Source: Callorhinchus milii (lineage: Eukaryota). From it: a DNA stretch of 64,000 bases. The position numbers were made by a program, and so were the translations under genes. The notes under the pieces are model-generated. The model was given only the letters and a program-made list of their open reading frames with translations. It ran no database searches and had not been told where the DNA came from. The stretch spans positions 16,618,001 through 16,682,000 of the forward strand of contig NW_024704742.1 in NCBI RefSeq assembly GCF_018977255.1, given 5' to 3'. Positions 21,462 through 21,498 of this stretch are shown here, piece after piece. Numbering within the stretch: position 1 is the stretch's first letter; each line of letters begins with the position of its first letter.

Positions 21462-21498
21462 AGTTCTGACGAAGGGTCGTGGACCCGAAACGTTGACT
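21462..21498 (+). ncRNA. Minimal type I hammerhead ribozyme motif (Penelope-associated)
   Basis: AGTT-CTGACGA-A-GGGTC-GTG-GACCC-GAAA-CGTT-GACT: intact catalytic boxes, 5-bp stem II, palindromic AACGTT stem III region, stem I AGTT/GACT. Confidence 0.8.

What the first reader, a model, noticed from the sequence alone, without database searches (positions are those of the whole stretch)
21462..21498. Intact minimal hammerhead ribozyme core in the Penelope 3' end
Seen: CTGACGA and GAAA boxes flank a perfect GGGTC/GACCC stem II with an extra A after the first box; stem III is reduced to the palindrome AACGTT; stem I AGTT/GACT closes the motif. Established: Penelope-like elements carry minimal type I hammerheads thought to cleave as dimers through a palindromic stem III. 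Four copies occur in this window (17850 decayed, 21462, about 26061 decayed, 58217). The 26061 variant has AGGTC/GACCT, a compensatory stem II pair. Activity is untested.
Basis: partly seen in the sequence, partly recalled or inferred. Interest (0 to 1): 0.7.

Follow-up and report, generated by a model that had tools for sequence, protein, structure and literature searches.

The report
Penelope retrotransposon's minimal hammerhead ribozyme
The motif is a complete minimal self-cutting RNA (hammerhead ribozyme) at the end of an old, broken Penelope-like jumping gene; this is a known kind of element, probably inert at this spot, and its one extra point of interest is that many short copies start at the ribozyme's first letters rather than at its cut site.

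Summary
Confirmed, known kind. 21462-21498 matches the published minimal-hammerhead consensus of Penelope-like elements (PLEs) throughout, including the extra A, which is standard. A descriptor gave 1 site in the window and 0 in 500 shuffles; Rfam misses it. It lies in the pseudo-LTR of a dead, 5'-truncated Neptune/Nematis-type PLE. Corrections: the 17850 and 21462 copies are two arms of one head-to-head insertion (17780-21565, 12/13-bp target duplication, the roughly 39-nt tail on one arm only), so they cannot dimerise in cis; 58217 has a stem II mismatch; 26061 carries its first box inverted; its A-U pair is not significant covariation (128 of 500 shuffles). The monomer is predicted to misfold, and intactness fits chance (p about 0.18). 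In public runs, hundreds of family contigs begin at 21461-21464, the 5' edge of stem I, and the cut site (21494/5) is not among the ends shown. The 58217 and 26061 copies end at the same place. This suggests uncleaved templates whose 5' end, possibly a transcription start, is the hammerhead's first base. The scan noted both the motif and this boundary earlier on other DNA. Cleavage is untested.

The parts
21462..21498 (+). Minimal type I hammerhead motif: stem I 4 bp (one U-G wobble), CUGACGA, extra A, 5-bp stem II, GAAA, CG, GUU triplet; predicted cut 21494/21495
   Evidence: published consensus seen
17780..21565 (.). One composite head-to-head PLE insertion (two 5'-truncated arms joined at about 20459/20460), later split by two SINEs and a LINE-like piece
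   Evidence: tblastn; sequence; flank match
17767..17779 (+). Left copy of the target-site duplication of the composite insertion
   Evidence: 12 of 13 bases match 21566-21578; 14 of 3000 random flank pairs of the same size reach that
21566..21578 (+). Right copy of the target-site duplication; the + arm stops here, about 37-39 nt short of the tail end kept by the - arm
20460..21220 (+). ORF remnant of the + arm: CX4CXXC linker (20460-20585), then after a SINE the CXXC-YIG region and GIY-YIG C-terminus to the stop; broken by a stop and frameshifts
   Evidence: E 1e-21 and 1e-22 to P0004 and P0005
21221..21565 (+). 3' UTR / pseudo-LTR of the + arm with the hammerhead and the proximal part of the tail
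17780..20459 (-). The - arm: RT C-terminal remnant, linker, GIY-YIG C-terminus (18606-18836), pseudo-LTR, decayed hammerhead and full tail
   Evidence: 88% and 84% identical to the + arm
17850..17886 (-). Decayed hammerhead of the - arm (first box and palindrome broken)
58217..58353 (+). Solo 137-nt insertion of hammerhead plus tail, starting at the second base of stem I; A-C mismatch in stem II; exact 15-bp target duplication at 58202-58216 and 58354-58368
   Evidence: 0 of 3000 random flank pairs give an exact 15-mer
26051..26188 (+). Short variant copy with its first box inverted (26051-26062, ending at the first base of stem I), A-U in place of G10.1-C11.1, broken palindrome, full tail; target duplication doubtful (9 of 12)
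20586..20915 (-). tRNA-headed SINE inserted into the + arm ORF (7-bp flank repeat); a 95% identical SINE at 20002-20327 splits the - arm

Best explanation
A genuine minimal hammerhead motif inherited as part of the pseudo-LTR of a Neptune/Nematis-type Penelope-like retroelement, now sitting in a dead, 5'-truncated insertion. In the active family it can cleave only when two motifs pair through ACGU (a tandem or trans dimer), weakly and probably only with help from the element's protein (inferred from published work on other PLEs). At this locus there is no same-strand tandem partner, the monomer prefers a fold that locks the core, and the motif is probably an inert passenger that has escaped mutation by chance. 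The genomic copies were made from uncleaved RNA: reverse transcription began in the tail 70-105 nt past the cut site and often ran to a template end at the 5' edge of stem I. Shown: motif, PLE context, insertion anatomy, clustering of 5' boundaries. Inferred: dimer or protein-assisted cleavage, inertness here, and the cause of the boundary.
For: Motif beats chance (1 site against 0 in 500 shuffles) and fits the published consensus CUGANGAH-G...C-GAAAN-palindrome-NUH. PLE ORF upstream with linker and CCHH motifs. Inverted arm, one-sided tail and target duplication are the PLE signatures in PMC8557442 Fig. 2 legend. Monomer MFE pairs core GACG with CGUU at probability 0.88-0.99; the active dimer scores -14.5 kcal/mol against -21.6 for two monomers and -28.3 for the best cofold. 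Intactness: 26 listed majority differences in 581 nt give p 0.18 for none in 37 nt; CpG retention 4 of 4 against 7 of 11, p 0.52. Published single minimal motifs did not cleave and dimers were weak; 1 of 9 Xenopus dimers cleaved; the anole motif needs protein and is dispensable for insertion in vitro. 5' boundaries at 21461-21464 with unrelated AT-rich flanks (agreement 0.34-0.39): 295 of 3225 partly laid contigs in X1, 386 of 5254 in X14, 37 of 940 in X10.
Against: No cleavage assay exists for this sequence. Nearest-neighbour energies leave out the non-canonical core, Mg2+ and protein. One search showed only 24 of 1621 loose-end rows, 15 of 159 joints and 40 of 320 variant rows, so a smaller class of copies starting at the cut site, or tandem arrays elsewhere in the genome, is not excluded; summed depth rises 2-5 fold from 21464-85 to 21508-29, which could hide such copies. 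No genome was available, so family-wide covariation could not be measured. The 8 nt at 21581-21588 resemble the tail, so the + arm end could instead be a decayed full tail.
Confidence: 0.8

Rival explanations
1. The hammerhead's first bases are the transcription start of an internal Pol II promoter in the pseudo-LTR. [quoted passage not shown] This refines rather than replaces the best explanation.
For: Boundary cluster at 21461-21464; 5 of the 15 joints shown are inversions whose inverted piece ends at 21462-21469; the 58217 copy starts at the 21463 equivalent directly after its target duplication; the inverted box of 26061 ends at the 21462 equivalent; A21462 is the +1 of matches to both YYANWYY and BBCABW initiator patterns (patterns recalled). 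D. virilis Penelope has an internal promoter and a start site in the pseudo-LTR. Summed depth over hammerhead and tail is 72-267 fold that over the ORF end (the tool warns this is no copy number).
Against: The initiator pattern is cheap: 8 YYANWYY matches in 380 nt of this pseudo-LTR, 1.3% of window positions (0.36% for both patterns). The commonest boundary is 21463, not 21462. In D. virilis the start lies about 120 nt upstream of helix I, with an intron between. The one raw RNA run showed no start or end pile-up, though that library could hardly show one.
Confidence: 0.4
2. The boundary at the 5' edge of stem I marks a 3' splice site (pyrimidine tract, CAG at 21461-63), as in D. virilis where the intron ends at helix I, or a place where reverse transcriptase drops off the protein-bound hammerhead.
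For: The family letters upstream are more pyrimidine-rich than this copy (rows 21443, 21447, 21458) and end in CAG; D. virilis precedent.
Against: No GT..AG joint among the 15 joints shown; the flanks share no upstream exon (agreement 0.34-0.39); in 58217 the target duplication abuts the motif with no exon carried along. A polymerase stalled by a hairpin would be expected to stop at its 3' side, near 21498 (inference).
Confidence: 0.2
3. This particular copy is an active or host-conserved ribozyme that cuts a host transcript.
For: All core letters, both stems and 4 of 4 CpGs are kept while the sister arm lost them; no majority difference is listed for 21459-21515.
Against: Not beyond chance (p 0.18 for 37 nt, 0.07 for 57 nt, and this copy was picked as the best of four). 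No tandem partner; locked monomer fold; no host exon found among 150 of 356 non-repeat frames scanned, none reaching a Pfam cut-off.
Confidence: 0.06
4. A chance sequence with no ribozyme ancestry.
For: No Rfam hammerhead match; fold z-score of 21462-21590 is +1.0.
Against: 0 descriptor hits in 500 shuffled windows; position in a PLE pseudo-LTR where such motifs are published; near-identical design in a coral Neptune element.
Confidence: 0.02

Closest known systems
Minimal hammerheads (min-HHR) of metazoan Penelope-like elements (Cervera and De la Pena 2014, PMC4209133)
   Same: Whole consensus, extra nucleotide between 9 and 10.1, G10.1-C11.1, palindromic 15.2-16.2, no loop III, location in the 3' pseudo-LTR, mostly solitary copies. 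CG-U-U occurs in many of the 56 listed motifs; the Acropora Neptune motif has the same CUGACGAA and CG.
   Different: No cartilaginous fish is among the 56 motifs listed (supplement file 1 could not be searched). Here stem I closes with a U-G wobble. The 5' boundary of short copies at stem I is not described in the parts I read.
Neptune/Nematis-type endonuclease-positive PLEs (Craig et al. 2021, PMC8557442)
   Same: C-terminal GIY-YIG with CCHH, CX2-5CXXC linker, adjacent inverted 5'-truncated copy, 30-40-bp tail at one end only.
   Different: The RT core is absent from the window, so Neptune against Nematis was not resolved by a tree; Neptune is inferred from the vertebrate host.
PAc, Poseidon element of Anolis carolinensis (Frangieh et al. 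2024, PMC11167929)
   Same: Copies end 71 and about 105 nt past the cut site (PAc initiates about 85-92 nt past it, computed from the stated positions); two ends separated by a tail; templates uncleaved; both target strands extended, which would explain two arms.
   Different: Different clade; in PAc the start codon lies in the hammerhead, whereas here N7 is C and there is no AUG in the core.
Non-LTR retrozymes (Li, Clavereau and Pollet, bioRxiv 10.64898/2026.07.22.740005)
   Same: Short non-coding PLE-end derivatives with a type I hammerhead, reported in one chondrichthyan genome.
   Different: Retrozymes are head-to-tail arrays; the copies here are dispersed monomers, one with a target duplication.

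Membership tests
min-HHR of metazoan PLEs | CUGANGA plus one unpaired H before helix II | tested here: met
   21466-21473
min-HHR of metazoan PLEs | Helix II opened by G10.1-C11.1, followed by GAAA | tested here: met
   5 bp, pair probabilities 0.98-1.0
min-HHR of metazoan PLEs | Palindromic 15.2-16.2, no loop III, NUH triplet | tested here: met
   A-C-G-U then U17 (GUU)
min-HHR of metazoan PLEs | Short helix I closing the motif (type I) | tested here: met
   4 bp with one U-G wobble
min-HHR of metazoan PLEs | Location in the pseudo-LTR of a PLE | tested here: met
   241 nt after the GIY-YIG stop in the + arm; same order in the - arm
min-HHR of metazoan PLEs | Covariation of helices across genomic copies | tested here: inconclusive
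   1 two-sided change in 9 pairs, 4 sequences, 128 of 500 shuffles; no genome; one search gives no linked variants
min-HHR of metazoan PLEs | Self-cleavage as a dimer | not testable with these tools
   Bench assay needed; the RNA run cannot show cut ends
Rfam hammerhead families | Score at gathering threshold | tested here: not met
   No hammerhead family
Neptune/Nematis-type EN+ PLE | CX2-5CXXC linker upstream of a C-terminal GIY-YIG | tested here: met
   Present in both arms of the window and in 8 of 8 relatives examined
Neptune/Nematis-type EN+ PLE | CCHH motif around the YIG core | tested here: met
   CXXC and first H in the + arm, both H in the - arm; complete in 8 of 8 relatives
Neptune/Nematis-type EN+ PLE | Inverted 5'-truncated arm and 30-40-bp tail at one end | tested here: met
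Neptune/Nematis-type EN+ PLE | RT phylogeny placing it in Neptune | not tested
   RT core absent from the window; no named reference sequences obtained
Non-LTR retrozyme | At least two consecutive head-to-tail units with complete hammerheads | tested here: not met
   Four dispersed places, none tandem; rest of the genome not seen

The most novel reading that the evidence does not exclude
In this PLE family the hammerhead is the 5' cap-proximal structure of the element's RNA: transcription starts at the first base of stem I, and internal priming in the tail turns the first 100-140 nt into a very abundant, SINE-like, Pol II-driven mini-element. The motif would then be kept mainly as a promoter and protein-docking module, with cleavage rare or regulatory, and the locked monomer fold would protect the template from cutting.
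Probability: 0.35. Interest if true: 0.55.

Novelty: new member of a known kind. Interest (0 to 1): 0.27.

Why it matters
The motif itself is ordinary: thousands of such minimal hammerheads per genome were described in fish, coelacanth and frog PLEs in 2014. What PLE hammerheads do is still open. The genomic record here says that inserted copies keep the 5' half of the ribozyme, so cleavage did not define their ends, in line with the in vitro result for the anole element. If the boundary at stem I is a transcription start, it gives a direct test of PLE promoter position and explains the mass of solitary motifs as products of internal priming rather than random truncation.

Tried and rejected
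Rfam: no hammerhead match. No whole genome held. A 21-nt tail pattern found 0 stretches in viral contigs and 6 in metagenome contigs, all GC-rich loci sharing only the 21-22 nt pattern, rejected as chance. Pfam did not recognise the 59-aa or 79-aa ORF ends; the word-indexed protein search for longer relatives scored none of 7 candidates; the profile-free full search did find them (506 proteins at E up to 0.001). The atlas gave unnamed clusters and one with GIY-YIG in 15% of members (lead only). Names of the relatives could not be looked up, so host and clade labels rest on motifs. No RNA holder listed; the one raw RNA run, from a related organism, showed no start or end pile-up, which says nothing on cleavage. 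Loose ends at 21502 were rejected as real boundaries in X14 and X21 because the clipped letters are the hammerhead itself. Excess conservation of this copy was tested and not found. A conserved tail hairpin is predicted in 26061 (z -2.3) but not in 58217 (-0.7) or 21462 (+0.3): inconclusive. A host gene was not found: 150 of 356 non-repeat frames of 45 aa or more scanned, 3 weak hits below cut-off. Lunse et al. (PMC5785218) is not held; I saw only its title and a review's summary. Supplementary Fig. S2 of PMC11167929, which maps ends of genomic PAc copies, is an image without text and may already show the boundary.

Full report
1. Observation. Numbered as a hammerhead: stem I 5' strand 21462-65, CUGACGA 21466-72, one extra A, stem II 21474-78 with 21482-86 and a 3-nt loop, GAAA 21487-90, C15.2, G16.2, U16.1, U17 at 21494, stem I 3' strand 21495-98. 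The cut would fall between 21494 and 21495. A descriptor (core boxes, stem II 4-8 bp, UH, stem I of 3 bp or more) found this one site on both strands of the window and none in 500 dinucleotide shuffles.

2. Context. The frame ending at 21218-21220 and its sister at 18606-18836 encode a GIY-YIG C-terminus. [quoted passage not shown] These motifs define the Neptune/Nematis type (PMC8557442, passages and section 6). The two arms meet head to head at 20459/20460. The flanks 17767-17779 and 21566-21578 match in 12 of 13 bases; 14 of 3000 random flank pairs of the same size do so. The - arm keeps a tail about 39 nt longer than the + arm. An inverted truncated copy and a 30-40-bp tail at one end only are the published PLE signatures. 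So the copies at 17850 and 21462 are very likely one insertion, on opposite strands. Against: the arms differ by 12-16% and 21581-21588 resembles the tail, so a decayed full tail is possible. The host is probably a cartilaginous fish: the window is full of a tRNA-headed SINE with a TGC anticodon whose 3' end resembles that of a LINE-like repeat, like the alanine-tRNA SINEs described for a chimaera (PMC5499810, passages); this was not confirmed by sequence comparison.

3. The other copies. 58217-58353 is a solo 137-nt insertion that starts at the second base of stem I and is flanked by an exact 15-bp duplication (0 of 3000 random pairs); its stem II has an A-C mismatch. The copy near 26061 has its first box inverted at 26051-26062, ending at the first base of stem I; its target duplication is doubtful (9 of 12). 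Its A-U pair at 10.1/11.1 is real, but one two-sided change among 9 pairs in 4 sequences is reached by 128 of 500 shuffles, and it replaces a pair that the 2014 paper calls highly conserved.

4. The family in public runs. No genome is held and the pattern scans gave nothing useful. Of 24 runs listed four were laid on 20980-21620 at 80% likeness: 13124, 3744 and 24246 contigs and 7590 raw reads. Summed depth over hammerhead and tail is 72, 267 and 87 times that over the ORF end in X1, X10 and X14; the tool warns that this is no copy number. Contigs whose 5' part leaves the stretch cluster at 21461, 21463 and 21464: 295 of 3225 partly laid contigs in X1, 386 of 5254 in X14, 37 of 940 in X10, with unrelated AT-rich flanks (agreement 0.34-0.39). 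Five of the 15 joints shown are strand switches at 21462-21469, the same design as the 26061 copy. The cut site 21495 is not among the 24 loose-end rows shown, but 1597 rows, 144 joints and 280 variant rows were not shown, so a minor class there is not excluded. The raw RNA run, a poly(A) single-cell library of a related organism, showed reads on both strands and no pile-up of ends; it cannot test cleavage.

5. Mechanism. Shown by others: single minimal motifs do not cleave, dimers and trimers cleave weakly (PMC4209133, parts 1-2 of 4 of the text and parts 1-2 of 3 of supplement file 2); 1 of 9 Xenopus dimers cleaved (bioRxiv 10.64898/2026.07.22.740005, parts 1-3 of 5); the anole Poseidon motif cuts only with its protein, is dispensable for insertion in vitro, and reverse transcription starts at two sites that delimit the tail, on both target strands (PMC11167929, parts 1-2 of 4). 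Computed here: the monomer pairs core GACG with CGUU (probabilities 0.88-0.99, -10.8 kcal/mol); the active dimer fold scores -14.5, a dimer with the six-base AACGUU duplex -17.1, the best cofold -28.3. These energies omit the core's non-canonical pairs, Mg2+ and protein. GUU is an allowed NUH triplet, less favoured than GUC and AUC (PMC9217987, passages). This copy differs from the family majority at 26 listed places in 581 nt, so a clean 37-nt stretch has p 0.18; CpG retention is 4 of 4 inside against 7 of 11 outside, p 0.52. Inference: the locus is a dead insertion, the motif an unselected survivor without a cis partner. The two arms fit priming from both target strands at the two tail sites (ends 71 nt and about 105-110 nt past the cut). 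Copies that keep stem I and the first box were made from uncleaved RNA.

6. The boundary. Why copies stop at 21461-21464 is not settled. A transcription start is my preferred reading (0.4): A21462 is the +1 of two initiator patterns (recalled), simple ends and inverted pieces both stop there, and D. virilis Penelope has an internal promoter in its pseudo-LTR (PMC2377424, part 1 of 4 and passages). But the pattern is common (8 matches in 380 nt), the mode is 21463, and the D. virilis start lies about 120 nt upstream of helix I. A 3' splice site or polymerase drop-off is the rival (0.2). I found no paper describing this boundary in searches (listings and abstracts only, apart from the papers named); Lunse et al. 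is not held (seen through the review PMC6765202, passages) and Fig. S2 of PMC11167929 is an unreadable image, so it may be in print. I recorded the boundary before the look-up that showed an earlier agent had noted the same on another genome; that note is not independent evidence.

7. Verdict. Observation confirmed; interpretation supported with corrections. New member of a known kind: no cartilaginous fish is among the 56 motifs listed in 2014, but the design, position and extra A are all published. Interest 0.27; 0.55 if the transcription-start reading holds (probability 0.35).

Noticed in passing
window 26051-26064: Next to the 5' end of the inverted piece the letter reads G where the family has C; an untemplated G from a capped RNA would look like this, but it is one case and could be chance.
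   Followed up: no
window 21499-21520 and 21555-21570: Two pyrimidine tracts ending in AG lie in the tail (the first directly before an ATG in three copies; this copy reads TTG there). They look like splice acceptors; the opposite strand has a donor-like GTGAGT over the 3' strand of stem I. No matching joints among those shown.
   Followed up: partly
window 58342-58353: The 3' end of the solo copy repeats the 13 letters that span its own 5' junction; microhomology with the target or the start of a second unit.
   Followed up: no
window 20002-20327, 20586-20915, 60344-60675, 3489-3797, 22254-22565, 41313-41677, 43518-43880, 61001-61307: The eight Rfam tRNA hits are heads of a roughly 320-nt SINE family, not tRNA genes; two young copies (95% identical) sit inverted 258 nt apart inside the PLE insertion.
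   Followed up: partly
window 36957-38240 (+), 38321-39349 (-), 27200-28700, 46700-47600: Fragments of LINE-type elements; two frames match RVT_1. About 29% of the window is self-repeated.
   Followed up: partly
proteins P0005, P0009, P0021, P0082, P0118: Public gene predictions often fuse this PLE endonuclease fragment to host genes (a GPCR, RecQ5, NYAP); probably annotation artefacts.
   Followed up: no
window 21487-21493: If 21461-21462 is a start site, the ACGT palindrome falls at about +29 to +33, where the downstream promoter element of Drosophila Penelope and LINEs (RGACGTGY) has the same four letters; the match is partial.
   Followed up: no
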